Shown here piece by piece: positions 26,963-42,500 of a stretch of DNA of 64,000 nt (position 1 is its first letter; each line of letters opens with the position of its first letter). The stretch lies in contig JBLYPW010000002.1 of assembly GCA_048538275.1 (NCBI GenBank), forward strand, positions 2,111-66,110. The letters run 5' to 3'. A model generated the notes under the pieces. It did no database searches and was not told the origin of the DNA. It worked only from the letters and a program-made list of their open reading frames with translations. The position numbers were made by a program, and so were the translations under genes. Origin of the DNA: Candidatus Komeilibacteria bacterium (GTDB taxonomy: Bacteria > Patescibacteriota > Patescibacteriia > UBA1558).

Positions 26963-27538
26963 ATGCCTAAAATTGAGCGAAATATTGAACCCGGCTCTAT
27001 TCATCATGTCTATAATCGGTCGGTAGAGAAAAGAACCATATTTTTTATTGACAGAGATTATCAATGGTTTTTAGAAAAAATAGCGTTTTATAAAGTTAAA
27101 TATAAGGTAAAAATCTTAGCTTTTGCGCTTTTGCCTAACCATTGGCATTTGTTAGTGCAGGAACAGGAAGTAGTCCAACCCCCGGCGTTGGCAACGCCGG
27201 GGGTTGTTAGAATGATTGGAGATTTATGCAATGCCTATGTCAAGCGCTTCAACATAGCTCATGATCGCTCTGGACCCTTATTCCAGGGCAGATTTAAGTC
27301 AAAAGTGGTTGAAGATGAGCATTATTTGCAGAATCTTATTAATTATATCAATCTCAATCCAGTAAAACATAAAATAGTAAAGAATATTAAAGACTGGGAT
27401 TATACGTCACATTGGCACTACTTGGAGAAAGGGAAATTTGCTTTGGTTGATAAGAGTGAGTTTATAGATTTTGCGGTTTATAAGGCTGGCGTGGTTGATT
27501 ATTTACGAAAATTTGAGAATATTGAGGAAGAATTTTAA
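26963..27538 (+). CDS. IS200-like HuH tyrosine transposase, REP-associated (RAYT-A, 191 aa). It carries an in-frame REP hairpin insertion.
   Basis: N-terminus MPKIERNIEPGSIHHVYNR. HuH motif LLPNHWHLLV. C-terminal Y motif HYLQNLINYINLNPVKHKIV. REP caacccccggcgttggcaacgccgggggttg at 27177-27207 is translated as QPPALATPGVV. REP hairpins flank the gene at 26865-26895 and 27542-27572. Confidence 0.8.
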   Translation: MPKIERNIEPGSIHHVYNRSVEKRTIFFIDRDYQWFLEKIAFYKVKYKVKILAFALLPNHWHLLVQEQEVVQPPALATPGVVRMIGDLCNAYVKRFNIAHDRSGPLFQGRFKSKVVEDEHYLQNLINYINLNPVKHKIVKNIKDWDYTSHWHYLEKGKFALVDKSEFIDFAVYKAGVVDYLRKFENIEEEF

Positions 27539-27673: not shown

Positions 27674-30600
27674 ATGTTGAATATAAAGGAAAAATTTAAA
27701 ATCAACCCCCGGCGTTGGCAACGCCGGGGGTTGGCAACACCCGGTGTTGGAATCCGCATCGCTTCTATTCTTTTTATTGCTATCATTATAGTAGCTGGTT
27801 TAATTTATATATTCAATAAACCTCAATCAGTAGAAGCAACTTGGTGGAACCCCACCTGGAGTTATAGACAAAGCATTGCTGTCACCAATGGCTCAGGCGG
27901 TACTTTAACAGATTTTCAAGTTGAGATATTGCAGAATGTTGATTTGAGTAGCCTTAATACAGCCGGCAAGCTGCAAGCAGATTTGGCTGATTTACGTTTT
28001 ACCGATATAAATCATAGAGTTCTGCCTTATTGGATAGAAGATAATACTATCTCTTCTGTAAATGCTTGGATTAAAATACCATCTATTCCTACAACCGGTA
28101 CTACTATTTATATGTATTATGGGAATTCATCGGCTAGTGATGCGCAGGATGGATTTAATACATTTTTGGCTTTTGATGATTTTGAAGACGGGGATATGAG
28201 TACATGGGAGCATATAGATGCTTGGGGAGATAATCTTGGCACATGGACAGAGTCTGGTGGCGTTATGCGTGCTGATTGTAATACTTTATGGTGCCATGAA
28301 ACTGCCTGGCAACATGTAAATTTTCAAACCGATAATGTTGCTTTAGCTGCCAAACATCGTTGTTTGGGTAATAATTCTGACGGTGAAGGTGGGATAGGTA
28401 TTTCTTTTACAGGCGGATGGGAAAATTATAGCACACAACAAACAATGCTTATCCGTAATGATAATCAAGATATCTGGGCAAGTGGAGGCACCCCTAGTAC
28501 CACCGTGTCGTTTACTAATACATGTAATACATGGTATAAAACCGAAATTAGAGATATTGCTGGCTCTAATGCAACTTTATGGGTGGATGATGTACAAAAA
28601 CATGCCACCACTAATAGTGTTACTACTGTAAACGGTAGGCCAGCTTTATCCCAGTATAAGGGTGATATTGAATACGACTGGGTATATTATAGAAAATTAG
28701 CATCCACTCAGCCTACAGCCGGCAGTCCAGCCACTGAAGAAAACGCCCCCGGCCCAGTGGGTTATTGGAATTTTAATGAGGGATTTGGCACAACAGCTTA
28801 TGATAGTACAGGTTATGGTAATGATGGGACAATTTCAGGGGCAACCTGGGTGCAGAATGGTAAAAGTGGTAGAGCTTTGAGTTTTAACGGGAGTAGTGAT
28901 TATATTATAACTAATAATGATATTGGAATATCAGGAACAGATGAAAGGACAGTTAGTTTATGGGTAAAAACTACATCAGCAAATGTTACTACAAATTCTA
29001 TTATTTTTGGAATGGGCACCGCTGCTGCTAATAATTTATTTGCCATGAGAACTGATTCTACTACTGATACTTGGAGATTTACAGATGCATCAGTTGCAAG
29101 AGAAACAAATGTCTCAACAACTGGTCAGTGGCAACACATAGTAACTATACTTGATTCTAGTCAACAATTAAGCGTTTATATTGATGGAATTATAACAGAT
29201 GTAAATAATATTGATTTGTCATCACAAGATACTACTAATGCTCCTTTCTATATTGGTTCAAGTGTTAATAATACTTTGTATTTTGATGGTCTCATAGACG
29301 AAGTACGCATCTACGACCGTGCCTTGTCAGCCAATGAAGTGAAACAGCTTTATAATCAAAATGCCGGCAGCTTTAATGTCGGGCAGTCTGGTATATCCAC
29401 TTCTTGCGCTGATCAATTGGCAAAAAATCCCGGCTCTAAGTCTGGTGTTTATACTATTGATCCTGGCTATGGAGTTGATCCTTTTGATGTTTATTGTGAT
29501 ATGGAGACTGACGGTGGGGGGTGGACTATGGTGGCATCAAATCATTCTAGTAGTACTTTAATACCCTCTGGCACTGGCAGAAATTCTGCTGAGTATGAGT
29601 TGGATAGGAATGGCAGTTATACTGCGTTAGGGACACCTTCTCCAAATACGGATTATATTATTGGCGCAGCTATTAATATATTGGAATGGGATGAAGCAAG
29701 GATTACTATGTTTGGGTTTGATTCAACTAGTTCATCGTATGTTTATCCCACAAATTTGGGAGATTATGCAGATGTTAAATGGGATGTTCCTGGTTCTGAT
29801 GCCGGACGGTTGGATCAGGCCGTTGCGGCAGCTAGTGTGTCCATATTTAGGAATAATAATTTTGCAAGTTTTCATCCAAGTGTTGCTTATTTCTATGTAG
29901 ATGGAGTACATCATGACTATATGCCAGATAGTGTATATGGCGCTAATGCAAATCAGGCAACAGTTGGAGGTGTTGGTAGAAGTGGCACGACTGTTACCGG
30001 TACATACTTTGGGCATGGTGTAACTGAGGGAAGTTTTGAGGGTTCATATGGCCCAGGAAACACGGCGAGTAAAAATGCCTCTGGGTATGTTACGTGGGTT
30101 AGAAGTAATACTGTGACTAGTTCATCTGGCGTTGCTCTAGACCTCCCCTTTGAAGCCGTATCCGGCTCTACGACTTATGATATTTCTGGTAATGAAAATA
30201 ATGGCACCATTACCGGCGCTACTCACAAAACTTCAGCCAATTGTAAGGTGGGGCGGTGTTTTGAGTTTGATGGGAGTGGTGATACTATAACCATAAGTGA
30301 TAGCACCAGTATTAATGCTATAGGGCAAGCTATGACGCTATCTGCCTGGGTTAAACCATCAGCATTTACAACTAGTTATAGGTCGGGGATTATCACAAGA
30401 CGTAATGGCAATGCAGGTATTGGATTTTATTTGGCCGGTGATTTAGATCCTGCTACATCAGGAACAATGGAGGCTATGATTGGGGGCGGGGCAAATGTTG
30501 CAGCTAATACAGCCTTACCACTAGATGAGTGGTCTTATACAACTATGGTCGCAAGCGGCGACAGTATTTCTTTTTATTTGAATGGAGTAGATGATGGTGG

Positions 30601-33412
30601 CGGCGTTTTGACCGGTTGGACCTGGGATGATGGTGTGGCTGTTCAGATTGGTGGAGTTACTGGTACAGCTGGTTATACAATATTTGGATTTATTGATGAG
30701 CCTAAAATATTCAACCGCGCTCTTACGCAAAGAGAAATTATGATGGAAATGAACGCTGGTAAACATCAGCCAGTATTAGATTTAGGTTTTGATGAAGGTG
30801 GAGGCAGTACAGCTTATGATAAGTCAGTTTTAACTAATAATGGTAGTATTTCTGGAGCTGATTATAAAACTCCGGAAAATTGTGTAAGTGGAAGTTGTTT
30901 GGATTTTAATGGTAGTAGTGATCATGTACGGATTACAGATAGCAGTTCTGGTGATGATTTGGATTTTGGTAGTGACAGCTTTACCGTTTCAGCTTGGGCT
31001 AATATTGATGAAGGAACAACTGCGCGTGGCACAGTACTATCCAAATCTAATGATGTGACTATGCCGGATACAGTTGGCTATTGGTTGATGGGACCCTATA
31101 CTGGTTGGTCTAGCACCTTTGCTTTTGCTACCAACGATGGTTCAGGTAGCACATTTTATGTTAGTGATGGTGATACTAGCTTGATAGATGGTAAGTGGCA
31201 TCACGTTGGTTTGATTTTAAATAGAGATACGGGCATTATGACGCTTTATGAAGATGGTCAGTCAGTTGACACGGCTGATATTAGTTCTTTGGGTAGTATT
31301 TCTAATAGTTATAATTTTGGTGTAGGTAGTTATCAAGGTGGTGGCAGTAATGTGATCAATGGCAAAATAGATGAAGTTAAAATGTATAATTATGCTTTAA
31401 CAGAAGCAGAATTAAAACAAGAATACACTCAATCCAAAGGTCAGTTTGGGCGGACTAGTGCGGTGGGAGAAAAAACCACGCCCGGAGCTTCTTGCGCGGA
31501 TATTTTAGCGAAAAATTCTCAGGTCGCAGATGGATATTATTGGATAGATCCTAATGGCGGATCACAATCAGACGCTTTTAAGGTTTATTGTGATATGACC
31601 ACTAATGGCGGGGGCTGGACATTGATTGAGTCATTTTCTTTAGCTAATAAAGCAAGTTTTACATCATTTTTGGGCAACGTGTCTATAAATGAGGATGATC
31701 CGACTCAAATAGATAATTATAGATTATCTAAGACTAGAATGGATAATTTAAATGGCGTTTCAACACAATGGCGCTCAACCTGTCAAATGAATCAGGATCC
31801 TACTAGAGATTATGCAATATCTAATAAATCAGATACAGATATAATGACATTTGCAATTACTGATAGTTGCCGGGTTATGGTTGATGTAAATGTCCGTGGT
31901 TATAATTGTCAAAATTGTCAGGCTAAGTGGTGGGGTTATGCCGCAGGTAGTAAGCATACCCACTTAGATTCAAGCATTAATAATGCTGTGTGTGGTGTAG
32001 GATCGCTTGACTCAGACGCTGGCTCTGTAAGTTCAGAAGATAATTGGGGTTATTATGCTTATACAAATCCTGAATTTCAATGTACTGCTTCTAGCGATTC
32101 AACAACAAATTGGTGGATGGGAGGTCTTGGCAGTAGTATTTCTACCGGCCCTGTTCTTGACATGACTTTTGATAAATATGTTGGTGGAGTTTATTTGGAT
32201 GAGAGTGGCAACGGACATAATACTACTACTATTAGCAGTGATCCTGAATGGAAAACAACAGTCAATTGTAAGTCGGGCAGATGTGTAGATTTTGATGATA
32301 GTTCGGATTGGGTTAGGATTGCAGCAAATTCAGTATTTGATTTTACAGGCGACTATACTTTAGAGGCGTGGATTAAGCCAAATTCTGTCGTGGGTTATCG
32401 TCACGGCATTATGGGTAAATATTCTAGCGATGGTTGGGGTTTGAATTTGCATGAAGATAAGGTGAATTTTGGTAGTCATACTTGTAGTAACTTTAGTGGT
32501 TCAACTAGTTTGCAAGCAGGTGCTTGGTATCATGTGGTGGGTATTTATAAAGAAACAGGTGATGATGAACTTTATGTGAATAGTCGTTTAGATGGAACTG
32601 GTAATTTAACCGACGGGAATTGTAATGCTGATACTAGCGATGTTGTTATTGGTACTTATAGAACTTCAACAACAGAAGAGTTTAATGGGATCATTGATCA
32701 GGTAAAAATATACGATAGAGCTTTAACACAGAGAGAAATATCTATGAACTATAATGGCGGTCAACCGATTGGTTGGTGGCGACTGGATGAGGGGGCGGAT
32801 AATTTATGTTCTGACGGCAAAGACGCTTGTGATAGTTCCGGTGAAGGGAATAATGGGACAGAAAGTGGAAATATTACTTGGATAACAGATACTTCTTTGT
32901 GTAAACAGGGTGGTTGTGCTAGTTTTGACGGGAGCGGGGATTATATACAAACTAGTTTATCCCAAACTTTTAATTCAACGACTATATCTTTCTGGATGGA
33001 TTGGGATAATTATGGAACAGATACTATCGATTTTATAGGAGAAAGTGAGGATAGTAGTAAAGTAATGGTTCACACCGGCGGTGGATCAGGGATAAATGGT
33101 ATAAGGTTTCATTTTGCTTCAAGCGCTTCAGGGTTTGATACAATAGGTATAATCGGCTCTGGTTGGAATCATTATTTAGTCACTTATGATAATGGGAGTA
33201 TAAAAATTTATAAAAACGGAGTTTTGGAAAATTCCGCAACGGTGACAGATGAGTCTGCTACTATAAGTTCTTGGGATATTGGCAGAAGAAGTAATAGTGA
33301 TGGTTATCATTTTAATGGTTCTTTAGATGATATCCGCATCTACAACTACGCCCTCACCGATAAACAGGTTAAAGAAGTATATAATCAAGGGTTGATTCAT
33401 TTTACCCCGTAA
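27674..33412 (+). CDS. Giant paralog 5 (1,912 aa): REP-encoded leader, TM anchor, DUF2341-like domain, LamG-like modules and two fibrinogen-C-terminal-like domains.
   Basis: Leader MLNIKEKFKINPRRWQRRGLATPGVG is encoded by the REP inverted pair plus palindrome at 27705-27752. TM helix IASILFIAIIIVAGLIYIF. DUF2341-like block TWWNPTWSYRQSIAVTN...GKLQADLADLRFTD...IYMYYGNSSA. Fibrinogen-like motifs CADQLAKNPGSKSGVYTIDPGYGVDPFDVYCDMETDGGGWTMVA at ~29395-29560 and CADILAKNSQVADGYYWIDPNGG..FKVYCDMTTNGGGWTLIE at ~31480-31640. LamG ends DEVRIYDRALSANEV, DEVKMYNYALTEAEL, DDIRIYNYALTDKQV. Confidence 0.8.
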   Translation: MLNIKEKFKINPRRWQRRGLATPGVGIRIASILFIAIIIVAGLIYIFNKPQSVEATWWNPTWSYRQSIAVTNGSGGTLTDFQVEILQNVDLSSLNTAGKLQADLADLRFTDINHRVLPYWIEDNTISSVNAWIKIPSIPTTGTTIYMYYGNSSASDAQDGFNTFLAFDDFEDGDMSTWEHIDAWGDNLGTWTESGGVMRADCNTLWCHETAWQHVNFQTDNVALAAKHRCLGNNSDGEGGIGISFTGGWENYSTQQTMLIRNDNQDIWASGGTPSTTVSFTNTCNTWYKTEIRDIAGSNATLWVDDVQKHATTNSVTTVNGRPALSQYKGDIEYDWVYYRKLASTQPTAGSPATEENAPGPVGYWNFNEGFGTTAYDSTGYGNDGTISGATWVQNGKSGRALSFNGSSDYIITNNDIGISGTDERTVSLWVKTTSANVTTNSIIFGMGTAAANNLFAMRTDSTTDTWRFTDASVARETNVSTTGQWQHIVTILDSSQQLSVYIDGIITDVNNIDLSSQDTTNAPFYIGSSVNNTLYFDGLIDEVRIYDRALSANEVKQLYNQNAGSFNVGQSGISTSCADQLAKNPGSKSGVYTIDPGYGVDPFDVYCDMETDGGGWTMVASNHSSSTLIPSGTGRNSAEYELDRNGSYTALGTPSPNTDYIIGAAINILEWDEARITMFGFDSTSSSYVYPTNLGDYADVKWDVPGSDAGRLDQAVAAASVSIFRNNNFASFHPSVAYFYVDGVHHDYMPDSVYGANANQATVGGVGRSGTTVTGTYFGHGVTEGSFEGSYGPGNTASKNASGYVTWVRSNTVTSSSGVALDLPFEAVSGSTTYDISGNENNGTITGATHKTSANCKVGRCFEFDGSGDTITISDSTSINAIGQAMTLSAWVKPSAFTTSYRSGIITRRNGNAGIGFYLAGDLDPATSGTMEAMIGGGANVAANTALPLDEWSYTTMVASGDSISFYLNGVDDGGGVLTGWTWDDGVAVQIGGVTGTAGYTIFGFIDEPKIFNRALTQREIMMEMNAGKHQPVLDLGFDEGGGSTAYDKSVLTNNGSISGADYKTPENCVSGSCLDFNGSSDHVRITDSSSGDDLDFGSDSFTVSAWANIDEGTTARGTVLSKSNDVTMPDTVGYWLMGPYTGWSSTFAFATNDGSGSTFYVSDGDTSLIDGKWHHVGLILNRDTGIMTLYEDGQSVDTADISSLGSISNSYNFGVGSYQGGGSNVINGKIDEVKMYNYALTEAELKQEYTQSKGQFGRTSAVGEKTTPGASCADILAKNSQVADGYYWIDPNGGSQSDAFKVYCDMTTNGGGWTLIESFSLANKASFTSFLGNVSINEDDPTQIDNYRLSKTRMDNLNGVSTQWRSTCQMNQDPTRDYAISNKSDTDIMTFAITDSCRVMVDVNVRGYNCQNCQAKWWGYAAGSKHTHLDSSINNAVCGVGSLDSDAGSVSSEDNWGYYAYTNPEFQCTASSDSTTNWWMGGLGSSISTGPVLDMTFDKYVGGVYLDESGNGHNTTTISSDPEWKTTVNCKSGRCVDFDDSSDWVRIAANSVFDFTGDYTLEAWIKPNSVVGYRHGIMGKYSSDGWGLNLHEDKVNFGSHTCSNFSGSTSLQAGAWYHVVGIYKETGDDELYVNSRLDGTGNLTDGNCNADTSDVVIGTYRTSTTEEFNGIIDQVKIYDRALTQREISMNYNGGQPIGWWRLDEGADNLCSDGKDACDSSGEGNNGTESGNITWITDTSLCKQGGCASFDGSGDYIQTSLSQTFNSTTISFWMDWDNYGTDTIDFIGESEDSSKVMVHTGGGSGINGIRFHFASSASGFDTIGIIGSGWNHYLVTYDNGSIKIYKNGVLENSATVTDESATISSWDIGRRSNSDGYHFNGSLDDIRIYNYALTDKQVKEVYNQGLIHFTP

Positions 33413-33434
33413 AGTAACGAAGTTACTAACGGGG
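33405..33434. repeat. Palindrome family 2 (ccccgtaaagtaacgaagttactaacgggg), overlapping the stop codon of paralog 5.
   Basis: Nested inverted repeat with inner stem gtaacgaagttac. Related copies at 39306-39336 and 44821-44935. Confidence 0.75.
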
Positions 33435-33462
33435 TGAGGGATAATGGTTATAACATATCAAT

Positions 33463-33600
33463 ATACAATACCCCGTCACTTCGACCGATGTCCAAACGCA
33501 GTGCGGACGAGTGGAGAAGTCTATAGAGCAGCCGTGTGATGAGAGACTTCTCCGCTCGCTTTCGCTCGGTCGAAGTGAAGAGGAGTATGGTTACTAGGGG
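33463..33600. repeat. MITE-like palindromic element, family 3, copy 2.
   Basis: ccccgtcacttcgaccgatgtccaaacgcagtgcggacgagtggagaagtctatagagcagccgtgtgatgagagacttctccgctcgctttcgctcggtcgaagtga is a long imperfect palindrome. Confidence 0.7.
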
Positions 33601-33686
33601 CGGTAGAATTAAAAAGCCGTTCGGAGGAAGCTCCAGACACGTCTGACGTGTCCAGCTTCCGACGAACGTGTGGATGAGGCAAAATT

Positions 33687-33806
33687 ATGCTAAAAATATT
33701 AAAAAACTTAATAAAAACGAGCCGGTGGCGCCACCGGCCTCCGGCTCCCGGCCTCCGGCTCCCAGCCTCCGGCCTTAGGCTCGGAGAGCGTTGGAATTAG
33801 TAAATC
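33687..33806. repeat. About 120-bp GC-rich insertion, relative to the paralogous leader at 39540-39590. It has 9-bp direct repeats ATGCTAAAA at both ends and internal cctccggctcc tandem units.
   Basis: Upstream regions 33586-33686 and 39516-39587 align. The second copy runs straight into ATGCTAAAATTAGCC. The first copy duplicates ATGCTAAAA at 33687 and 33807, with ...gccggtggcgccaccggcctccggctcccggcctccggctcccagcctccggcc... in between. Confidence 0.6.
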
Positions 33807-36800
33807 ATGCTAAAATTAGCCAAAAAATTTAAAATCAACCCCCAGCGTTGGCAACCCCCGGCGTTGGGAATATTAATAACAGCGATTATTATTGTATTTG
33901 CCGTGGTTTATTTTCTTCGAACACCCGGTGTTGTACAGGCAGAATGGTGGAATGAGGGCTGGCATTATAGAGATTCATATCCTATTACATACTCATCATC
34001 TGGTTCGGAATTAACAGAATATCAAGTCTTGGTGGAGGATCTGGATACTGCTACTCTAATAGCGGCTGGCAAGATGCAGTCTGATTGCGCGGATATTAGG
34101 TTTACAGATGTTAATAGTACAGTATTGAATTATTCTATTGTCGGCGCTACTTGTAATACCAGCAATACTAAAATATGGGTGAAGATGGAAAGCATCCCGG
34201 CAGGAGGAACAACTTTGTATTTATATTATGGCAATCCAAGTGCTAGTTTTTATCAAAGTGAAGAGAACACATTTAGTTATAGTACAGAAAAAACAGTGGG
34301 ATATGTTTTAAATGACGGGAGTACAGCTTTTGATTTAATTAGTTTGGCAGATGGTAATTCTATAACACACAATAGTACGACTTTAACTTTGAATAAAGGT
34401 GAAAGTAGCGCCCTTACTACCTCTACTTATTTACCAGTAACTGCCAAAAAATTATTTAATATGTCCACTGAGGAGTATGATACTATTGTACCGATTGGTT
34501 GGGCTGGCACGGAGTTTGTTTACCAGAATCGCAACGGGACTTATGAAACAGATTTTGTTATGGTCAGTCCGTGGGGTACGGCTACCGTACAAATATATAT
34601 TGATGGTGTGCAATGTGGTGCTGATAGAACAGTAACTAGCTCTGGTTTAAAGGTGACAGACTGTGGCGGCGCTGCTTCTGATGTGTTTAGGATAGTAAGT
34701 GATATACCTATCATTGTAAATAGGTCTAGCAGTGTAAATGATCCCCACCCTATGCATCCGGCTGATTTAGGACCTTGGTATGGTTGGGATTCAAGCGGCG
34801 ATTATATTGCCGCTGGCCCTAGTGGAGCCAGTTATCAGTGGATAGATAGTGGCATGAGCTCTGTTTCCTCAAGTAGTTTAGGTGCAAATGCGGGGACTAC
34901 TTTAGAAGCTGGTGGTGGCAGTTATTATTCTGGTGATACTATTAAGGTTTGGTCAACAGATTATGTTATGGGCGCGTCTACAGCTGGTGATGCTGACGGA
35001 GGGGATGCTACTACTTATTTGCCAAACTGGGAATTTGGCACCATAACCGGGTCGCCTTATGCAACGGATTTTGTGGCAGTACTATCTGATCAGGCAGTCA
35101 CTTGTACAACTTATAATAATAGCGGTGCCACCGTAAATACACAGCAATTATCTAGTACCAATACACAGGTTTATGAACTGGGTGGAACAAACTTTGGTAT
35201 AGGAAGTACTAGTGAATATATTAGTGGTGCTTGGTATGTAGAATGTGATGGGCCAGCTATGTTTGTATCACAAAATGTTGATGATGAACAAAATATGTGG
35301 TCTTGGCCTATGATGCGGCAGTTTTCTTATCCTACACCAGCGGTTGGTTCGGCTAGTGGTGAGGAAAAAGGAGAAGCACCAATATTGTATTGGAAGTTTG
35401 ATGAAGGTGTAGATAATTCTTGTTCTGGTGGCGGCGATGTGTGTGATTCCACAACCACCGGCGATCACAGGAACTTAGTGGGAGAACCAGATTGGCAGAG
35501 TGAAGACATGTGCGTGTCTGGTAAATGTTTATACTTTGACGGTACTAATGATTATATAGATTTAGGTTTTGGCAGCGGTCGTAATTTAGCTACCGATCCA
35601 TTATCAATAAGTATGTGGGTTAGACCAACTAGTTCTAGTGAAGATAATATGTACATAGCAACAGTGAATGGTACCAATCAGAGATTTTATTTTGCTATAC
35701 AAAATGGTTTATGGGATATGGGAATTCAAAATTCAACTTGGAGTCAAGGGGGTGCTGTTACTAGTGCAGACCTTAACGAATGGACGCATATAGCTATTGT
35801 CGCTAATGGTTCAGCAGTTAGGTTATATGTTAATGGTAATTATAGTTTTCAGAAAACATATACTTCGTATGCATTAGCTGGTAATATTGCCATTGCCAGC
35901 CAAGGCCCTGCAGGTGGTTATAAATGGCGAGGCTCCATAGATGATGTTAAAATTTATAATTATGCTCGTACAGACGATCAGATTAAAGCCGACTACTTAG
36001 CCGGCTTATCTGGCTCTTCGTCTGGTGTTGGCGCGTCTTTGGGCAGTAGGCAACAAGATCAGAGTGAAGGGCTGGTTGGTTATTGGCAGATGGATGATGC
36101 GGGTGTAGATGCTGAAGGTGAAACCATCAGTGATAGTTCCGGTAACGGCAACAGCGGCACGCTTTATGGTGATAATGCTACCGGTGATAATGGTACTGGT
36201 ATGGATTGTACCGTTACCGGTAAATATGGTACGGGTTGTAGTTTTGACGGGGTGGATGATTATGTTCTGAGTAGTTCCAATATCCCCGCTATGTCAAATT
36301 TTACGATATCAGTATGGCTACAGTGGGATGATTATGGCACTTCAAATACTCAATTTGTCACTGGAGGTGCTCAGGAGCAGTTTGAAATTCAAACCGGTGG
36401 AGGCAGCGGAACAAACGGTTTACGTTTTATACCCAATACTCACGACGCATCTACGTTAGATGTTGCTAATGCAATTCCAGATGCAAACTGGCATCATTAT
36501 GCAGTTGTATATACCAACAATGATCAAGTACTTGCATATAGAGACGGAGACGAAATTGGAAATAAGAGTCACTCGGTAAGTAGTAGTACTACAGCAAGTC
36601 AATTCAATATTGGAAGAAGAAGCAATAATAGTTATTTTTTTGATGGCAAAATAGATAATGTAAAAATATACAATACCGCCCGTACAGCCGAGCAGATAAT
36701 GAGGGATTATAAAACTGGACCATCGCCGGTGGCTTATTATGATTTTGAAGAACAATCCACTAGCATAGCCTATGACAGATCAGGCACTGGTGTTAATTTA

Positions 36801-39272
36801 ACGGCTACTGGTCTTGATAGTACAAATATTGGTTTAGGTAAATATGGCAGTGCATATAAATATACTACATGGGAAGAAAATCATATAGGAACGGCTAGTA
36901 GTATTTGTAATACTATCACCATGGAAGCCTGGATCTACCCATTATCTGATCCTGCTGAAAGATATACCATAGTATTTTATTCAGGTTCTCAAGCCGCTTA
37001 TTTAAGCTATGCTAATGGGCAAGCCCTTAATACTTATTGGGCCAGCAAATCTTCTCCTGGTTATCATACGTCTGGTGCAAGCACTGTACCAATTAATCAG
37101 TGGTCTCATGTAGCCGCAGTTTGGGATGATGCTGGTGTCAGCCTTTATGTTAATGGCATTGAAAAAAATAGAGTGTCAACAACGGGTGGCTCTTGTACGG
37201 GAACAAGTTTAACTTTAGCTGCGCAAAATAGTGGACGACAAATGAATGGCTATATTGATGATGTTCGGATTTATGATTATCCCCGTACCCAGGAACAAAT
37301 TCTTTGGGACATGTATGGTGATGAATCGCCACACCCCATTGCTTATTGGAATTTTGATGAGGGATATGGCAGTACAGTTAATGATAGTGGGCCCTTGGGG
37401 GCTGATGGTACCATTACGGGTGGAACTTGGACAACGGATGGTAAATTAGCTAATGGTGTATCTATCAATAGTACGGACTCTATTAGTTGTGGCACTCATT
37501 CAGGTTTAATATTCGGTAGCGCAGATCATTCTTTTAGTGCTTGGGTAAAGCCAAGCGCTTTAACTAATTCTAATAATTATATTGTTGCCATTGGTAATAA
37601 TGCAACTGGCGAGCAATCCGGATTTGGTGTGAAAAGTGATGGAGATTTATTTCACTCAGCCTATTCTTCTCCTTTGGTAAGTTTTGATACGTCAGTTTCT
37701 ACGGGCAATTGGTATCATTTAGCTTTGGTACACGATAGTGGCACGAGTTATGCTTATGTGAACGGTGAACAAGTTAGCGGTCAAGCTATAGCTATGAATA
37801 TTACTACTGGCAAATGTTATATAGGCGCTCATACAGCCGCTGGTTCAACATTTAATGACGGCATCTTGGATGAAGTAAAAATATTCAATTTTGCTTTATC
37901 CCCAGAACAAGTCCGTCAAGAATATAATCAAGGTAGTCAGGTATCATTAGGTAAGCAAAAAAATGATTCATCCACTTGGGATGATGGTGGTTTTGGTGGT
38001 GCGGCGCCAGTAGCATATTGGAATTTTGAAGAGGGTAGTGGTTCTACGGTTTATGACCGGTCTGTTAATAGTAATAATGGTACGATTACCAATGCCACTT
38101 ATACGCTGGGTAAGCCTGGTTGGGGTATGCAGTTTGATCCTACTAATGAATATGTTTCTATTCCAGACCATACTGCATTAAAGCCAACAGAGATTACAGT
38201 TGAGGCTTGGGTAAAGCCTGGCACTACCATGTCTAATAATAGGATTATTTCTAAAACAGAGGTTAGTGGTTATACAATGGGCATGGCGATAGATGGTACA
38301 GCTGATAGTAACTTTTATGTATATAGAGATGGTGGATATATTAATGCTGGTTGGGATGTTTCTAATTTTAGTTCAGGTACTTGGTATCATATGGTTGGTA
38401 CTTATGATGGACAATATATTAAATTTTATGTAAATGGAGATCTTAAAGAATCTGTGGATGCGATTGGTAATTATCCCATAACATATATTGCTAATAATCT
38501 TTGTATTGGAATTGAAGCTGGCGGTACTACTTGTACAGATACTCGTGATTTTGACGGTGTTATAGACGAAGTAAAAATATTTGACTACGCTCGTACCCAA
38601 GCACAAATTGCTTATGATTATAATGGTGGTAAGCCGGTCGGTTGGTGGCCACTTGATAACAATGAGGGCATAACCGCTATGGATATTTCCGGAAATGGTA
38701 ATCATGGAACATTGACCGATATGGATCCGGCCACTGATTGGCTGGATGGTACAAGTTGTCAATACGAAGGCTGTCTGGATTTTGATGGGATGGATGATTA
38801 TGTTGATATCTCTTCATACGATATTTCTACCCCAAGTTTTACAGCTTCCTTATGGTTTAATATGACTACGTTAGAGGATAGTGATTATAATATACTTTTA
38901 CAGCAAACTGATAGTGGTTCAGGAACGGGTAGAACATTCCTTGGGATACACACAACCACTAATGACATATTTACAAATATTGGTAATTCACAATTAACTT
39001 CAGGAATCATTCCAGATACAGGAACTTGGTATCACGCTGTAGTATCTTTTGACGGTTCTAATCTCAAATTATATGTTAATGGAAAGTTAGAAAATTCCAC
39101 TACTGATGTGTTGGAAAGCGCTAACGCTTCAATATTAATTGGGGCTGGCAAATCGTTTTCTGCTACTCAATTCTTTGATGGTAAACTAGACGATGTTAGA
39201 ATATATAATTATGATCTAACCGCTGATCAAGTAAAAGAAGTTATGAACCACGGAGCTGTTTATTTTAAATAA
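33807..39272 (+). CDS. Giant paralog 6 (1,821 aa): REP-encoded leader, TM anchor, DUF2341-like domain, many LamG-like modules. It ends in VMNHGAVYFK.
   Basis: Leader MLKLAKKFKINPQRWQPPAL, with the REP dimer at 33836-33867. DUF2341-like block EWWNEGWHYRDSYPITY...GKMQSDCADIRFTD...LYLYYGNPSA. Several blocks are about 93 percent identical at nucleotide level to paralog 4 (for example 36033-36270 versus 23521-23760). Confidence 0.8.
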   Translation: MLKLAKKFKINPQRWQPPALGILITAIIIVFAVVYFLRTPGVVQAEWWNEGWHYRDSYPITYSSSGSELTEYQVLVEDLDTATLIAAGKMQSDCADIRFTDVNSTVLNYSIVGATCNTSNTKIWVKMESIPAGGTTLYLYYGNPSASFYQSEENTFSYSTEKTVGYVLNDGSTAFDLISLADGNSITHNSTTLTLNKGESSALTTSTYLPVTAKKLFNMSTEEYDTIVPIGWAGTEFVYQNRNGTYETDFVMVSPWGTATVQIYIDGVQCGADRTVTSSGLKVTDCGGAASDVFRIVSDIPIIVNRSSSVNDPHPMHPADLGPWYGWDSSGDYIAAGPSGASYQWIDSGMSSVSSSSLGANAGTTLEAGGGSYYSGDTIKVWSTDYVMGASTAGDADGGDATTYLPNWEFGTITGSPYATDFVAVLSDQAVTCTTYNNSGATVNTQQLSSTNTQVYELGGTNFGIGSTSEYISGAWYVECDGPAMFVSQNVDDEQNMWSWPMMRQFSYPTPAVGSASGEEKGEAPILYWKFDEGVDNSCSGGGDVCDSTTTGDHRNLVGEPDWQSEDMCVSGKCLYFDGTNDYIDLGFGSGRNLATDPLSISMWVRPTSSSEDNMYIATVNGTNQRFYFAIQNGLWDMGIQNSTWSQGGAVTSADLNEWTHIAIVANGSAVRLYVNGNYSFQKTYTSYALAGNIAIASQGPAGGYKWRGSIDDVKIYNYARTDDQIKADYLAGLSGSSSGVGASLGSRQQDQSEGLVGYWQMDDAGVDAEGETISDSSGNGNSGTLYGDNATGDNGTGMDCTVTGKYGTGCSFDGVDDYVLSSSNIPAMSNFTISVWLQWDDYGTSNTQFVTGGAQEQFEIQTGGGSGTNGLRFIPNTHDASTLDVANAIPDANWHHYAVVYTNNDQVLAYRDGDEIGNKSHSVSSSTTASQFNIGRRSNNSYFFDGKIDNVKIYNTARTAEQIMRDYKTGPSPVAYYDFEEQSTSIAYDRSGTGVNLTATGLDSTNIGLGKYGSAYKYTTWEENHIGTASSICNTITMEAWIYPLSDPAERYTIVFYSGSQAAYLSYANGQALNTYWASKSSPGYHTSGASTVPINQWSHVAAVWDDAGVSLYVNGIEKNRVSTTGGSCTGTSLTLAAQNSGRQMNGYIDDVRIYDYPRTQEQILWDMYGDESPHPIAYWNFDEGYGSTVNDSGPLGADGTITGGTWTTDGKLANGVSINSTDSISCGTHSGLIFGSADHSFSAWVKPSALTNSNNYIVAIGNNATGEQSGFGVKSDGDLFHSAYSSPLVSFDTSVSTGNWYHLALVHDSGTSYAYVNGEQVSGQAIAMNITTGKCYIGAHTAAGSTFNDGILDEVKIFNFALSPEQVRQEYNQGSQVSLGKQKNDSSTWDDGGFGGAAPVAYWNFEEGSGSTVYDRSVNSNNGTITNATYTLGKPGWGMQFDPTNEYVSIPDHTALKPTEITVEAWVKPGTTMSNNRIISKTEVSGYTMGMAIDGTADSNFYVYRDGGYINAGWDVSNFSSGTWYHMVGTYDGQYIKFYVNGDLKESVDAIGNYPITYIANNLCIGIEAGGTTCTDTRDFDGVIDEVKIFDYARTQAQIAYDYNGGKPVGWWPLDNNEGITAMDISGNGNHGTLTDMDPATDWLDGTSCQYEGCLDFDGMDDYVDISSYDISTPSFTASLWFNMTTLEDSDYNILLQQTDSGSGTGRTFLGIHTTTNDIFTNIGNSQLTSGIIPDTGTWYHAVVSFDGSNLKLYVNGKLENSTTDVLESANASILIGAGKSFSATQFFDGKLDDVRIYNYDLTADQVKEVMNHGAVYFK

Positions 39273-39305
39273 TTATTTAATAAGCAGGTGATGAACCCCG
39301 TAAAG

Positions 39306-39540
39306 TAACGAAGTTACTAATGGGGGTGAGGGATAATGGTCATAACAAATCAATATACAATACTCCGTCACTTCGACCGATGTCCAAACGCAGTGCGGAC
39401 GAGTGGAGAAGTCTATAGAGTAGCCGTGTGATGAGAGACTTCTCCACTCGCTTTCGCTCGATCGAAGTGACGGATGGGTTATGATGACTCGGTCGAAGTG
39501 ACGAGGAGTATGGTTACTAGGGGTGGTAGAATTAAAAAGC
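39306..39540. repeat. Palindrome family 2 copy (39306-39336) followed by MITE-like family 3 copy 3 (39345-39540).
   Basis: ccccgtaaagtaacgaagttactaatggggg, then ccgtcacttcgaccgatgtccaaacgcagtgcggacgagtggagaagtctatagagtagccgtgtgatgagagacttctccactcgctttcgctcgatcgaagtgac. Confidence 0.7.
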
Positions 39541-39587
39541 CGTTCGGAGGAAGCTGCTTCCGACGAACGTGTTGATGAGGTAAAATT

Positions 39588-42500
39588 ATGCTAAAATTAG
39601 CCAAAAAATTTAAAATCAACCCCCGGCGTTGGCAACCCCCGGCGTTGATTATAATAACAGCGATTATTATTGTATTTGCTGTGGTTTATTTTCTCCGAAC
39701 ACCCGGTGTTGTACAGGCAGAATGGTGGAATGATGGGTGGCATTATCGGCAGACAATTTCTTTAACAAATTCAGGTGCGGCACAAACCAATACGCAGGTA
39801 AAAATACTTAGTGCAGAAGACTTAAGTTCTTTAGTAACAGCTGGCAAGCTGCAATCCGACCTTGACGACCTTAGGTTTACTGATGTTAATGGTAATATTC
39901 TTAAACATTGGATAGAAGATTCTACTAATTCAAGTGTAGATATTTGGGCCTTTATAGATTCTGTATCAGCATCTGGCGCTACTATCTATATGTATTATGG
40001 CAATCCTTCTGCTAGTGCTGATATAGTTGCTTTAGGCACGGCTGCATATCCGGGGATATCTTGTAAATCTGTATTACTGAGTGGTATTACTGCGGATGGT
40101 ATATATTATATTGATCCTACCGGACAAGAAACTACAGATAAGCTTCAAGCTTACTGTGATATGAACACTAGTAGTGGTGGCTGGACTTTGATTTTTCAAA
40201 GAAGAGGTGGTGAGAGTTATAATAATGCAGAATCTTGTGGCTCAAATCTTAATTCTTTTTTAAGAGCTAGCTGCGGGTCATTAACCTCTTTAAACTATGG
40301 AGATTCATATAGTATGGATATAGATTATGCGCCGATTGCTAATGAATACATGTTTAGACAATATGATTCCAACATGACTTTTGATAGTGGCGATGCTTTT
40401 ATTATTAATTCTGACAATTTATTATTTCCTAATATTACCACTAGTTTAAGTAATATTGCTGTGAACGCAATTTGTGATTATAATAATGCGAACTGCGATA
40501 CTACGGATACTTATTTTAAATATACTGGCGCCGGATATTTTAGCAGTACGTATTGTAATAATGGTTATACTACAGGGTATGGAGGTAATTATGGATATTG
40601 TCAGAATGGCATTTCAACAACTTACTACTCAAATGGACTTTTTGGTAATAGATTGGCGTATGATGAAACAAAACTATGGGCACACAATAATGGATCTGAT
40701 GAGTATATGGAAAGGGTTTTTGTGCGTGAATCTACTATTTCAACCACTGGCCACACAGTTACAGCAAGCACCCCCTCCTCCGAAGAAAAAGGTCCTGGCC
40801 CGATAGCCTATTGGAAATTTGATGAAGGTTATGGAACTACTGCCTATGATAGTAGTAGCAATAATAACAACGGTTCTATTTCTGGTGCTGCATGGCAGAC
40901 GGAAGATATGTGTGTGACTGGAAAATGTTTATTATATAACGGTACAGAATATGTAGGTTCTTTTAGTGATAATTTAAGTATGGGGTCAGAAGATTTTACA
41001 GTTTCAGCTTGGTTTAAAACAAATAGTGTTGTCACTTATGGTCAGTGGATTGTTGGTAATAAAGGTACTAGCACTAGTAATGATACAGGCTTTGAGTTAA
41101 TAATGGAGGGTGGTAGGCCTGGTATTTTTATTGCAGATGGTTCTAATAATATTAAATATCAGACTGCCAATTCATATGCGGATAATACTTGGCATTTTAT
41201 AACTGCTACGGTTAGTAGGGGTAGTAGCATTAAGCTTTATGTGGATGGCAAATTTATTTCAGAAAGGAGTGAAACGTTAGCGGGTAGTATTAATGTAAGT
41301 TATGGTTTATCTGTTGGTTTAAGACCTGGCGGAGGAAGTGAATTTAATGGTTTCATCGACGAAGTTAAAATTTACCCCTACGCCCGCACCGCTACTCAAA
41401 TCAAAGCCGATTATTTAGCGGGCCAAGTTGGCGTTGCTGAGGGCACAACCGCTGGTTTTGGTTCAGCAACCACTGGCAAGTCTTTATCAGATGGTCTGGT
41501 TGGTTATTGGAAGATGGATGAGGCAAGTTGGAATGGAACATCTGGAGAAGTTATAGACAGCTCTGGTAGTGGTAATAATGGTACGGCAGGAAACGAAGCA
41601 TCAATAACAGGTGGAAAGTTTGGTAATGGAGGTACTTTTGATGGAAGTAATGATTATATATCAATACCTGACAGCTCAGCTGATTTGAGTGGTGATTTTT
41701 CTGTTTCTATGTGGGTTCATCCCAATGACAATAGTCAAAATCCAAGATGGTTTGGTCTTGTGGATGGGTCAAATACTTTAGCAGTGGGGTACATGGATGA
41801 TGATACAGTCTATTTTAGATTTGGTGGTGATTCTATAATAACTGATTCAACTCTAACTTACGGAAACTGGTATTATGTGACTTTTGTTTATCAATCCAAC
41901 GCAAAGCAAATATATATAAACGGAGAAATAATGAATACAAGTTCAGGAGGCATTACTGGTGATTCAACATTATCTGCTATAGGTGCAGGTTATGCAACAA
42001 CAAGCTACACTGCTGATGGAGAAATTGACGAAGTAAGATTATATGAACGTGCCCTATCAGCCAAAGAAGTTCGTGATTTATACAATTGGGCGCCCGGGCC
42101 AGTTGCCTATTATAATTTTGATGAAAAAACAGGCACCACGGCTTATGATAAATCAGGCAATGGAAATAATGGCACTTTAACCAATATGGATGCAGCAACG
42201 GACTGGGTATCTGGTAAATATGGCAGTGCTTTAGATTTTGATGGAGTTAATGATTATGTCAACATACCCGATCCTGGAGCAAATTCTGTATTTGATGTTA
42301 CGCAAAATCTTACAATTTCCATGTGGATGAATAAAGCGGTGGATAGCGCCCACGGTAATTTGATAGAAAAGGGAGGTTCTTGGTGGATTCATCACGATTC
42401 TGCTTTTGAAGGGTATGCTGGCAATGGCATTCAGGGCGATGCTTTTCATGGTATTCCAGAATGGAATTATGATTTAGCTGAGAATACTTGGTATTATGTG

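What the first reader, a model, noticed from the sequence alone, without database searches (positions are those of the whole stretch)
29395..40230. Fibrinogen C-terminal-like globular domains inside bacterial LamG giants
Three segments match the fibrinogen-related-domain core as I recall it (C-x-D/E-I/L-L...G-x-Y-x-I-D/P...VYCDM-x-T-x-GGGWT-x-I/V). They are GISTSCADQLAKNPGSKSGVYTIDPGYGVDPFDVYCDMETDGGGWTMVA (~29395-29560), GASCADILAKNSQVADGYYWIDPNGGSQSDAFKVYCDMTTNGGGWTLIE (~31480-31640) and GISCKSVLLSGITADGIYYIDPTGQETTDKLQAYCDMNTSSGGWTLIFQRRGG (~40050-40230). FReDs are mainly eukaryotic, in ficolins, tenascins and angiopoietins, and they bind acetylated sugars. They are uncommon in bacteria. 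Their presence here supports a glycan-recognition role, and possibly horizontal acquisition.
Basis: partly seen in the sequence, partly recalled or inferred. Interest (0 to 1): 0.55.

Follow-up and report, generated by a model that had tools for sequence, protein, structure and literature searches.

The report
Divergent fibrinogen-like modules in CPR giants
Two giant surface proteins of a tiny, probably host-attached bacterium (Candidatus Komeilibacteria) carry three real but highly divergent fibrinogen-like modules of an already catalogued bacterial type, and they lack the sugar-binding pocket of animal fibrinogen-related lectins.

Summary
The three quoted peptides are in the window at 29390-29536, 31484-31630 and 40053-40211, in two ORFs of 1912 and 1736 aa. 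All three pass Pfam Fibrinogen_C (30-36 bits, cut-off 22) and NCBIfam NF040941 'fibrinogen-like YCDxxxxGGGW domain' (GGGWT_bact).

- Homology to fibrinogen-related domains (FReDs), COLFI and intelectins covers only the first 50-100 residues of each 220-245 aa module.
- The other 170-190 residues belong to three mutually unrelated subfamilies with no Pfam or PDB sequence match.
- All three lack the canonical Ca2+/acetyl-pocket motif, which two positive controls keep.
- AlphaFold models retrieve only FReD-superfamily folds, but weakly (TM 0.3-0.55).
- The module is not rare in prokaryotes: at least 579 confirmed copies in species-representative genomes.
- Recent horizontal acquisition is not supported. 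GC3 matches the host genes, and module B falls in a prokaryote-only clade separate from its cnidarian and sponge relatives.

Most likely these are interchangeable ligand-recognition heads on membrane-anchored DUF2341/LamG adhesins of a CPR bacterium. This is a new member of a known kind, of modest interest.

The parts
27674..33412 (+). Gene P1 (1912 aa). Order of parts: N-terminal membrane anchor, DUF2341, LamG, module A, 2 LamG, module B, 2 LamG.
   Evidence: ORF. Pfam Laminin_G_3 in 5 stretches (358 bits) and DUF2341 (69.9 bits). 100% identical to NCBI MFW0837853.1 'DUF2341 domain-containing protein [Candidatus Komeilibacteria bacterium]'.
27752..27814 (+). Hydrophobic segment (aa ~27-47, IRIASILFIAIIIVAGLIYIF) preceded by basic KINPRRWQRRG. 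Inferred signal-anchor that places the rest of the protein outside the cell.
   Evidence: Read from the translation. The motif is conserved at the N-termini of the paralogs. Topology is inferred, not tested.
27980..28210 (+). DUF2341 domain of P1 (aa 103-179)
   Evidence: Pfam PF10102, 69.9 bits, profile positions 1-82 of 84.
29387..30124 (+). Module A (P1 aa 572-817, 246 aa). The FReD-like N-terminal core is aa 575-624 (nt 29396-29545). The rest is a subfamily-A-specific region that ends in the strand GYVTWVR. The module has only 2 Cys.
   Evidence: Fibrinogen_C 36.0 bits over profile positions 4-49 of 221. Full-length homologues P0048-P0052 at 46-51% identity and 96% coverage. No P-domain motif. 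C-part has no PDB sequence match.
31478..32143 (+). Module B (P1 aa 1269-1490, 222 aa). The core is aa 1271-1322 (nt 31484-31639). Subfamily-B motifs are VRG, KWW, SEDNWGYY and C..STTNWW. The module has 8 Cys.
   Evidence: COLFI 52.5 bits and Fibrinogen_C 29.9 bits, N-terminal part only. Full-length homologues at 38-42% identity in archaeal contigs and cnidarians. AF2 model pLDDT 58.7. Foldseek returns only FReDs, TM 0.30-0.39.
33807..39272 (+). Paralog P3 (1821 aa) without a fibrinogen-like module. It serves as the comparison case for module swapping.
   Evidence: Pfam shows DUF2341 and 6 LamG stretches but no Fibrinogen_C. It shares the first 143 aa with P2 at 60% identity, then diverges exactly where P2 carries module C.
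39588..44798 (+). Gene P2 (1736 aa). Order of parts: N-terminal anchor, truncated DUF2341 (aa 91-144, nt 39858-40019), module C, 6 LamG.
   Evidence: ORF. Pfam: Laminin_G_3 in 6 stretches, DUF2341 over profile positions 1-57 of 84, Fibrinogen_C 31.5 bits.
40047..40742 (+). Module C (P2 aa 154-385, 232 aa). The core is aa 159-209 (nt 40062-40214), written SSGGW rather than GGGW. The Cys-rich subfamily-C region carries DDAFII, CD.NNANCD, GNYGYCQNG and ETKLW, and ends in ERVFVR.
   Evidence: Fibrinogen_C 30.9 bits over profile positions 4-54 of 221. Homologues at 48-56% identity in Paceibacterota, Aenigmarchaeota and Bdellovibrionales. AF2 model pLDDT 72.7, pTM 0.78. Foldseek returns only FReD-superfamily chains, E 1e-5, best TMq 0.55 to intelectin-1.

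Best explanation
The three segments are the N-terminal cores of three complete globular modules of 220-245 aa. They belong to the prokaryotic branch of the fibrinogen-related-domain superfamily, which NCBIfam catalogues as GGGWT_bact (NF040941).

Each module keeps three features:
- the A-subdomain disulfide pair (C...YCDM);
- the GGGWT strand;
- a terminal 'hydrophobic-x-hydrophobic-R' strand.

Between these elements each module carries a different, mutually unrelated region, so there are three subfamilies (A, B, C). None has the canonical P-subdomain Ca2+/acetyl pocket.

The modules sit between LamG modules (A, B) or directly after DUF2341 (C). The carriers are two membrane-anchored, presumably extracellular giant proteins in a tandem array of seven LamG-rich giant paralogs (four of them with DUF2341). 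The organism is a Candidatus Komeilibacteria bacterium (CPR/Patescibacteria).

Most likely mechanism (inferred): the giants are cell-surface adhesins. The fibrinogen-like modules act as interchangeable ligand-recognition heads, with the conserved N-terminal part as scaffold and the variable part setting specificity for a glycan or protein on a partner or host cell surface. Modules have been gained, lost and swapped between paralogs and orthologs.

Shown: the homology, the module boundaries, the subfamily structure, the absence of the canonical pocket and the module swapping. Inferred: surface exposure, ligand binding and the nature of the ligand.

The confidence of 0.6 is for the whole statement including the inferred adhesin/recognition role. 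The homology and anatomy parts alone I would put at about 0.9.
For: Homology:
- Pfam and NCBIfam hits are above their cut-offs.
- hhalign between the three subfamily profiles gives 98-99% probability over the first ~50 residues, and against a canonical FReD profile over 50-100 residues.

Complete modules:
- Each has full-length homologues that exist as stand-alone proteins of 200-350 aa.
- The terminal strand motif (VTWVR, RVFVR, NWYLR) parallels the MKVRP / IWIR ends of canonical FReDs (alignments).

Fold:
- Module C model: pLDDT 72.7, pTM 0.78. All of the top 50 listed PDB matches, of 89 at E <= 1e-3, are FReD-superfamily chains, including ficolins, tachylectin 5A, FIBCD1 and intelectin-1 (TMq 0.55).
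- Module B model retrieves only FReDs.

Divergent specificity parts:
- The C-terminal parts are unrelated to each other, to canonical FReDs and to any PDB sequence.

Swapping:
- The ortholog P0102 keeps module B at 84% identity but has only one GGGWT module.
- P2 and P3 diverge exactly at module C.

Adhesin context:
- N-terminal anchor, DUF2341 and 5-6 LamG repeats.
- DUF2341 proteins have been proposed as type IV pilus tip adhesins (PMC4858521). Giant DUF2341 proteins of Patescibacteria have been proposed to mediate adhesion or host interaction (PMC11809585).
- In the cultured parasite Minisyncoccus archaeiphilus a pilin-like protein (N_methyl) combines DUF2341 with a GGGWT module.
Against: - No binding data exist for any GGGWT_bact protein. 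No paper containing the family's name was found.
- The models are of low to moderate confidence. TM-scores of 0.3-0.55 are at or below the usual same-fold threshold, and Foldseek's 3Di+AA score is helped by the conserved N-terminal sequence.
- Module A has no model at all.
- The canonical ligand pocket is absent, so a lectin role rests on analogy and context alone.
- The window proteins have no prepilin (N_methyl) signal, so a link to pili is indirect.
- Surface topology is inferred from sequence only.
Confidence: 0.6

Rival explanations
1. Canonical FReD lectins: the modules are ficolin/tachylectin-like domains that bind acetylated sugars through a Ca2+-stabilised pocket in the P subdomain.
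For: Pfam Fibrinogen_C hits are above the cut-off. Foldseek hits for module C include ficolins and FIBCD1 with bound GlcNAc or ManNAc. A true full-length FReD does occur in another CPR protein: Nealsonbacteria L064 matches profile positions 2-208 of 221 and has the motif DADHDVYSANCASSYGNTAWWYGAC.
Against: Profile coverage is at most 54 of 221 positions. hhalign to a canonical FReD profile ends after 50-100 residues, and the C-terminal parts alone give probability below 1%. The D.D..C..GGWWY..C motif is absent in all three modules while the positive controls have it. Module A has no Cys beyond the A-subdomain pair. The weak look-alike in module C (CDTTDTYFKYTGAGYFSSTYC) has no statistical support.
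Confidence: 0.07
2. Assembly or oligomerisation modules. Like the fibrillar-collagen C-propeptide (COLFI) or the trimeric heads of ficolins, the modules would mainly drive multimerisation or register of the giant proteins rather than bind a foreign ligand.
For: Module B scores higher on COLFI (52.5 bits) than on Fibrinogen_C (29.9 bits). COLFI chains are among the best PDB sequence matches. A Peribacteria protein matches COLFI over nearly its full length, positions 19-225 of 233.
Against: The COLFI matches of the window modules cover only profile positions 29-75 of 233, the stretch COLFI shares with FReDs. Modules A and C fall below the COLFI cut-off. Three unrelated variable regions, with swapping between paralogs, fit diversified recognition better than a conserved assembly interface. 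Stand-alone secreted homologues are common.
Confidence: 0.15
3. Intelectin-like (X-type) lectin heads. The modules would bind exocyclic diols of microbial glycans through a Ca2+ site in a divergent C-terminal part, as intelectins do.
For: XEEL, lamprey serum lectin and intelectin-1 are among the best PDB sequence matches for all three subfamilies. The best TM-score of the module C model is to intelectin-1 (6usc_A, TMq 0.55) and XEEL (0.49). Intelectins set a precedent for a FReD N-terminal part joined to a diverged remainder.
Against: The sequence matches are again confined to the first ~50-100 residues. The C-terminal profiles find no intelectin at E <= 10. The modules are 220-245 aa, against ~280 aa for the intelectin chains. 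The intelectin Ca2+/ligand residues could not be checked because no coordinates were available.
Confidence: 0.1
4. Recently acquired eukaryotic domains: the modules entered this genome by recent horizontal transfer from an animal.
For: Subfamily B is abundant in Cnidaria and Porifera (Actinia, Nematostella, Oculina, Pocillopora, Oscarella). The Actinia gene has introns, spanning 3441 bp for 243 aa. The best non-orthologous BLAST hit of the module B variable part is an Actinia protein at 41.7% identity.
Against: GC3 of the modules (0.27, 0.26, 0.23) equals that of the rest of the genes (0.27, 0.26). Identity to animal proteins is only ~40%, the same as to archaeal ones. In an NJ tree module B falls in a prokaryote-only clade (CPR giants, archaeal, Pseudomonadota; bootstrap 83), separate from the metazoan clade (bootstrap 98). 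Orthologs exist in other Komeilibacteria. An ancient inter-domain transfer, in either direction, remains possible.
Confidence: 0.05

Closest known systems
NCBIfam NF040941 GGGWT_bact ('fibrinogen-like YCDxxxxGGGW domain-containing protein')
   Same: All three modules match this 46-position bacterial model end to end and above its cut-off. Homologues of module C are already named this way by NCBI, for example P0080 from Candidatus Paceibacterota.
   Different: The model describes only the N-terminal core. It says nothing about the 170-190 residue remainder, which here falls into three unrelated subfamilies. NCBI names P1 itself only 'DUF2341 domain-containing protein'.
Animal fibrinogen-related domains (Pfam PF00147: ficolins, tachylectin 5A, FIBCD1, angiopoietins, tenascins)
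   Same: A-subdomain disulfide, the YCDM.T.GGGWT strand, similar overall size, a terminal strand ending in R, and predicted folds that retrieve only this superfamily.
   Different: No detectable P subdomain, no D.D Ca2+ site and no C..GGWWY..C disulfide. Profile homology ends after 50-100 residues. The modules are embedded inside a 1700-1900 aa LamG protein rather than sitting at the C-terminus behind a coiled coil or collagen stalk.
Intelectins / X-type lectins (XEEL, human intelectin-1, lamprey serum lectin)
   Same: Same design: a FReD-like N-terminal part fused to a strongly diverged remainder. They are the top PDB sequence hits and give the best TM-score for module C (0.55).
   Different: No sequence similarity beyond the N-terminal part. 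The modules are shorter. The Ca2+/diol-binding residues could not be tested.
Fibrillar collagen C-propeptide (COLFI, PF01410)
   Same: Shares the same N-terminal core. Module B exceeds the COLFI cut-off (52.5 bits).
   Different: Only profile positions 29-75 of 233 match. There is no collagen triple helix upstream. Modules A and C fall below the cut-off.
Giant DUF2341/LamG surface proteins of Patescibacteria and DUF2341 pilus-associated proteins
   Same: The carrier proteins have the DUF2341 plus concanavalin-A-like (LamG) architecture discussed as adhesion or host-interaction proteins (PMC11809585) and as putative type IV pilus tip adhesins (PMC4858521). DUF2341 combined with a GGGWT module recurs in Minisyncoccus and Nealsonbacteria.
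   Different: The window proteins have no prepilin N_methyl signal. The fibrinogen-like inserts are accessory: five of the seven LamG-giant paralogs in the array lack them.

Membership tests
NCBIfam NF040941 GGGWT_bact | Score above the curated cut-off (30 bits) with a full-length match to the 46-position model | tested here: met
   P1 scores 128.2 bits in two stretches, and its best stretch (module B) matches model positions 1-46 of 46. P2 scores 51.3 bits, also over 1-46 of 46.
Canonical FReD (Pfam PF00147 Fibrinogen_C) | Profile score above the gathering cut-off (22 bits) | tested here: met
   36.0, 29.9 and 30.9 bits for modules A, B and C scanned separately.
Canonical FReD (Pfam PF00147 Fibrinogen_C) | Match across the A, B and P subdomains (most of the 221 profile positions) | tested here: not met
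   Matches cover positions 4-49, 4-47 and 4-54 only. hhalign to a canonical FReD profile covers 50, 90 and 100 residues. The C-terminal parts alone give probability below 1%. Positive control: Nealsonbacteria L064 covers positions 2-208 of 221.
Canonical FReD (Pfam PF00147 Fibrinogen_C) | A-subdomain disulfide pair and the YCDM...GGGWT strand | tested here: met
   The pattern C-x(20-40)-[YFW]CDM-x(2-5)-GGW is found once in each module. These columns are invariant in alignment A6.
Canonical FReD (Pfam PF00147 Fibrinogen_C) | P-subdomain Ca2+ site and disulfide-walled pocket (D.D...C...GGWWY..C) | tested here: not met
   The regex finds the motif in three sponge FReDs and in the Nealsonbacteria FReD, but in none of modules A, B or C. 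Module A has only 2 Cys.
Canonical FReD (Pfam PF00147 Fibrinogen_C) | FReD three-dimensional fold | tested here: inconclusive
Canonical FReD (Pfam PF00147 Fibrinogen_C) | Binding of acetylated ligands | not testable with these tools
   This needs recombinant protein with glycan arrays or ITC.
COLFI (Pfam PF01410) | Score above the cut-off (26.2 bits) with near full-length coverage | tested here: not met
   Only module B exceeds the cut-off (52.5 bits), and it covers positions 29-70 of 233. Modules A (20.8) and C (18.6) are below it. A Peribacteria protein covers positions 19-225, showing what a full match looks like.
Intelectin / X-type lectin | Sequence similarity beyond the FReD-like N-terminal part, and the intelectin Ca2+/diol site | tested here: inconclusive
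   Sequence similarity is confined to the N-terminal part. The best structural TM-score is 0.55. The Ca2+ site residues could not be examined.
DUF2341/LamG giant surface proteins of CPR bacteria | N-terminal anchor, DUF2341, multiple Laminin_G_3 repeats, and a CPR genome | tested here: met
   Pfam results. P1 is 100% identical to a Candidatus Komeilibacteria protein. Seven LamG-giant paralogs lie in tandem; the four from 21857 to 44798 carry DUF2341.

The most novel reading that the evidence does not exclude
The prokaryotic GGGWT domain may be a modular recognition system: a constant fibrinogen-like scaffold (N-terminal core plus terminal strand) carrying interchangeable, unrelated specificity inserts. 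At least three uncharacterised insert families are seen here. On this reading the system is deployed preferentially by bacteria and archaea that live by attaching to other cells. In the biased top-80 sample these were Myxococcota, Bdellovibrio and Bradymonadia (predators) and CPR and DPANN (episymbionts). One insert family (B) would also have been exchanged anciently between prokaryotes and early-branching animals (Cnidaria, Porifera), where it is an unstudied lectin-like family.
Probability: 0.2. Interest if true: 0.6.

Novelty: new member of a known kind. Interest (0 to 1): 0.3.

Why it matters
CPR bacteria depend on attaching to other cells, and their giant LamG/DUF2341 proteins are leading but untested adhesin candidates. 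It is useful to know that some of them carry swappable fibrinogen-like heads without the classical acetyl pocket. That points to concrete, expressible 220-245 aa modules for ligand screening.

It also warns against transferring 'binds acetylated sugars' from a partial Pfam hit.

The side result may interest people who study FReD evolution. One such module family is shared by CPR bacteria, DPANN-like archaea, Proteobacteria, cnidarians and sponges. The domain type itself, however, is already catalogued.

Tried and rejected
1. One AlphaFold job over P1 aa 560-1500, meant to cover modules A and B together, was abandoned. MAFFT aligned the module-B homologues onto module A (alignment A2). Module A therefore has no model.
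3. An exact look-up of P1 in the contig index found nothing. The source was identified later through the representative search.
4. Literature: no paper contains 'YCDxxxxGGGW' and no paper combines fibrinogen-related, prokaryotes, intelectin and evolution. Doolittle et al. 2012 (PMC3575912) is not held. My memory that it mentions a few bacterial FReDs is unverified.
5. A visual resemblance in module C, 'CD.NNANCD...G.GYFSS..C' against the canonical 'D.D..NCA..GGWWY..C', was checked with hhalign and a strict regex. It has no statistical support and is rejected as evidence.
6. The two IS200-like Y1 transposase ORFs that flank P1-P3-P2 were tested as ends of a possible composite element. They are unrelated to each other (E 0.07), so this is rejected.
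7. The NCBIfam TafC hits (haloarchaeal Tat-fimbria subunit, PMC11821415) are far below the cut-off (162-204 against 410 bits). They fall in multiple stretches over the LamG-repeat regions. They are not membership.
8. A recent-HGT signal was looked for in GC and GC3, and none was found.

Full report
**Observation**

The window is bacterial. It encodes IleRS, RecO, TGT, ClpB and ProRS downstream, has about 40% GC, and carries nearly all its genes on the + strand.

Between 11412 and 44798 lie seven tandem genes for proteins of 1093-1912 aa. They are built from Laminin_G_3 (concanavalin-A-like) repeats. The four from 21857 to 44798 also have an N-terminal hydrophobic anchor and a DUF2341 domain.

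- aa 573-621 of ORF 27674-33412 (P1), nt 29390-29536;
- aa 1271-1319 of P1, nt 31484-31630;
- aa 156-208 of ORF 39588-44798 (P2), nt 40053-40211.

They are statistically solid.
- Pfam Fibrinogen_C scores 36.0, 29.9 and 30.9 bits per module, against a cut-off of 22.
- NCBIfam NF040941 'GGGWT_bact, fibrinogen-like YCDxxxxGGGW domain' scores 128.2 bits (two stretches) and 51.3 bits, against a cut-off of 30.
- A profile of the core finds exactly three copies in the six-frame translation.

**Source organism**

P1 is 100% identical to NCBI MFW0837853.1, 'MAG: DUF2341 domain-containing protein [Candidatus Komeilibacteria bacterium]'. The window therefore comes from a CPR/Patescibacteria genome.

**What the modules are**

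LamG boundaries delimit three modules: A (P1 572-817), B (P1 1269-1490) and C (P2 154-385), of 222-246 aa. That is the size of a whole fibrinogen-related domain (FReD).

After the GGGWT strand the three sequences are unalignable with each other. Each nevertheless has its own full-length homologues elsewhere.
- Module A: 46-51% identity over 96% of its length to ~285-350 aa proteins from marine metagenomes.
- Module B: 38-42% identity over 95% of its length. The matches include small proteins on two archaeal contigs, whose neighbours are S6e, NMD3, XPD, HerA and GyrB, and a sea-anemone protein.
- Module C: 48-56% identity to proteins from Candidatus Paceibacterota, an Aenigmarchaeota archaeon and a Bdellovibrionales bacterium.

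Profile-profile comparison shows that the three subfamilies share only the first ~50 residues, at 98-99% probability. Their C-terminal 170-190 residues are unrelated to one another.

**Relation to canonical FReDs**

Every Pfam match covers only positions ~4-54 of the 221 in Fibrinogen_C, or 23-75 of the 233 in COLFI.

I built a canonical FReD profile (A10) from sponge FReDs, two other proteins (P0076, P0079) and a Nealsonbacteria FReD. Against it, homology extends over 50 (A), 90 (B) and 100 (C) residues. The C-terminal parts alone give probability below 1%. They also match no PDB sequence at E <= 10 other than chance hits.

The hallmark of the ligand-binding P subdomain is a D.D Ca2+ site followed by C...GGWWY..C. 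This motif is found in three sponge FReDs and in the Nealsonbacteria protein, but in none of the three window modules. Module A has only the two A-subdomain cysteines.

What is conserved is the following:
- the A-subdomain cysteine pair;
- the YCDM.T.GGGWT strand;
- a terminal strand of the type VTWVR / RVFVR / NWYLR, which parallels MKVRP / IWIR at the end of canonical FReDs (alignments).

**Structure predictions**

- Module C, with 8 homologues: pLDDT 72.7, pTM 0.78. Foldseek against the PDB returns 89 matches at E <= 1e-3. The top 50 are all FReD-superfamily chains: angiopoietin-2, tachylectin 5A, ficolins, FIBCD1, tenascins and intelectins. TM-scores are only 0.36-0.55, the best being intelectin-1 at 0.55.
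- Module B: pLDDT 58.7, pTM 0.59. It also retrieves only FReDs, with TM 0.27-0.39 over 115-150 well-aligned columns, which corresponds to the A and B subdomains.
- Module A could not be modelled.

The models are compatible with a FReD-like globule whose third part is remodelled. They do not prove it.

**How common, and where**

One scan of species-representative prokaryotic genomes with CDMx[TSL]xGGGW hit the 600-stretch limit. Of these, 579 were confirmed by tblastn.

The 80 best are dominated by Myxococcota and 'Deltaproteobacteria' (about 38), followed by:
- Bradymonadia, Bdellovibrio and Planctomycetota;
- some Gammaproteobacteria and Bacteroidota;
- three CPR genomes (Minisyncoccus archaeiphilus, Peribacteria, Nealsonbacteria);
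- two Woesearchaeota.

This sample is ranked by similarity to module B, so it is biased.

In the CPR examples the association with DUF2341 recurs.
- Minisyncoccus has a 1106 aa pilin-like protein with N_methyl, DUF2341 and a C-terminal GGGWT module.
- Nealsonbacteria has a near-canonical FReD inserted inside DUF2341.
- A Peribacteria protein matches COLFI over nearly its full length.

**Subfamily B and the transfer question**

A subfamily-B profile finds 14,763 representatives at E <= 1e-3 and 339 at E <= 1e-30 among 1.84 billion.

Named members include Actinia tenebrosa, Nematostella vectensis, Oculina patagonica, Pocillopora and the sponge Oscarella. The Actinia gene spans 3441 bp for a 243 aa product, so it is spliced and is not contamination.

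The window's module B does not look recently acquired.
- Its GC3 (0.26) equals that of the rest of P1 (0.27). The same holds for modules A and C.
- Its identity to animal and archaeal members is the same, about 40%.
- In a bootstrapped NJ tree it sits with orthologs from other LamG giants (bootstrap 100) inside a prokaryote-only clade with the archaeal and Pseudomonadota sequences (bootstrap 83). The cnidarian and sponge sequences form a separate clade (bootstrap 98) that also holds a Deltaproteobacteria pair.

An ancient inter-domain transfer is likely somewhere in this family. Its direction is open, and it is not a property of this locus.

**Module swapping**

The Komeilibacteria ortholog P0102 (2054 aa) keeps module B at 84% identity but contains only one GGGWT module.

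P2 and its neighbour P3 share their first 143 residues at 60% identity. They then diverge exactly where P2 carries module C and P3 carries a different ~360 aa block, and they realign in the LamG region.

Five of the seven LamG-giant paralogs have no fibrinogen-like module.

**Interpretation**

The best reading is that these are accessory, interchangeable recognition heads of the GGGWT_bact branch of the FReD superfamily, mounted on membrane-anchored DUF2341/LamG adhesins of an episymbiotic-type bacterium.

DUF2341 proteins have been proposed as pilus-tip adhesins in archaea, by analogy with PilY (PMC4858521). Giant DUF2341 proteins in Patescibacteria have been proposed to mediate adhesion or host interaction (PMC11809585).

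Ligand binding, ligand identity and surface exposure are inferences. The classical acetyl-sugar specificity is not supported. An assembly role of the COLFI type and an intelectin-like Ca2+/diol lectin role remain open at lower probability.

**Verdict**

- The domain type is already catalogued by NCBI, and the protein is in GenBank.
- The less-known aspects are the three uncharacterised variable regions and the shared cnidarian/sponge/CPR/archaeal subfamily.
- Interest is 0.3.

Noticed in passing
window 114-8258 (+), 8325-10754 (+), 10803-11312 (+): Three consecutive ORFs of 2714, 809 and 169 aa lie upstream of the LamG array and have no Pfam or NCBIfam match at all. The region has higher GC (0.43-0.46) than the rest of the window (~0.39).
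   Followed up: partly
window 11412-44798: A tandem array of seven LamG-rich giant paralogs of 1093-1912 aa. The four from 21857 to 44798 have near-identical N-termini (KINPRRWQ followed by a hydrophobic anchor). One paralog (14926-18378) also carries CBM_4_9 carbohydrate-binding domains.
   Followed up: partly
window 26963-27538 (+) and 44942-45619 (-): Two IS200-like Y1 transposase (RAYT-like, HxH motif) ORFs bracket the three genes P1-P3-P2. They are not related to each other (BLASTP E 0.07), so they are not the ends of a composite element.
   Followed up: yes
L064:1762-4410 (Candidatus Nealsonbacteria): A near-canonical FReD (Pfam positions 2-208 of 221, with the motif DADHDVYSANCASSYGNTAWWYGAC) is inserted inside a DUF2341 domain, between 'NYWIE' and 'VWTKIPSIP'. 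Some CPR bacteria therefore do carry complete FReDs.
   Followed up: partly
L010:298-3618 (Minisyncoccus archaeiphilus, cultured archaeon-parasitising CPR bacterium): A 1106 aa protein with a prepilin N-methylation motif, FN3-like repeats as read by eye from the translation, DUF2341 and a C-terminal GGGWT module. It is a candidate pilus-associated adhesin in a culturable organism.
   Followed up: partly
L001:8001-8627 and L002:8001-8888, also L002:3909-4793: Small stand-alone subfamily-B proteins sit in a conserved archaeal neighbourhood (XPD-like helicase, NMD3, GyrB, ribosomal protein S6e). One contig has a second Fibrinogen_C-hit gene 4 kb upstream, and the other has an rve integrase right after the gene.
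   Followed up: no
L004-L006 (marine metagenome contigs with subfamily-A proteins): The contigs carry two Fibrinogen_C-weak genes about 3.5 kb apart among mostly unannotated genes (weak Omp85, Peptidase_M28, DUF5131, ankyrin). One member comes from a Tara 0.22-0.45 micrometre size fraction. The organism is unknown.
   Followed up: no
window P1, P2, P3 and P4 (LamG regions): NCBIfam TafC (haloarchaeal Tat-fimbria subunit) hits of 162-204 bits in 5-6 stretches per protein, far below the 410-bit cut-off, falling over the LamG-repeat regions.
   Followed up: partly
window 21857-21957: ORF 18676-21957 and ORF 21857-26860 overlap by about 100 nt as listed. The N-terminus of the 21857 ORF has about 35 extra residues before the conserved KINPRRWQ motif, so its true start is probably further downstream.
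   Followed up: no
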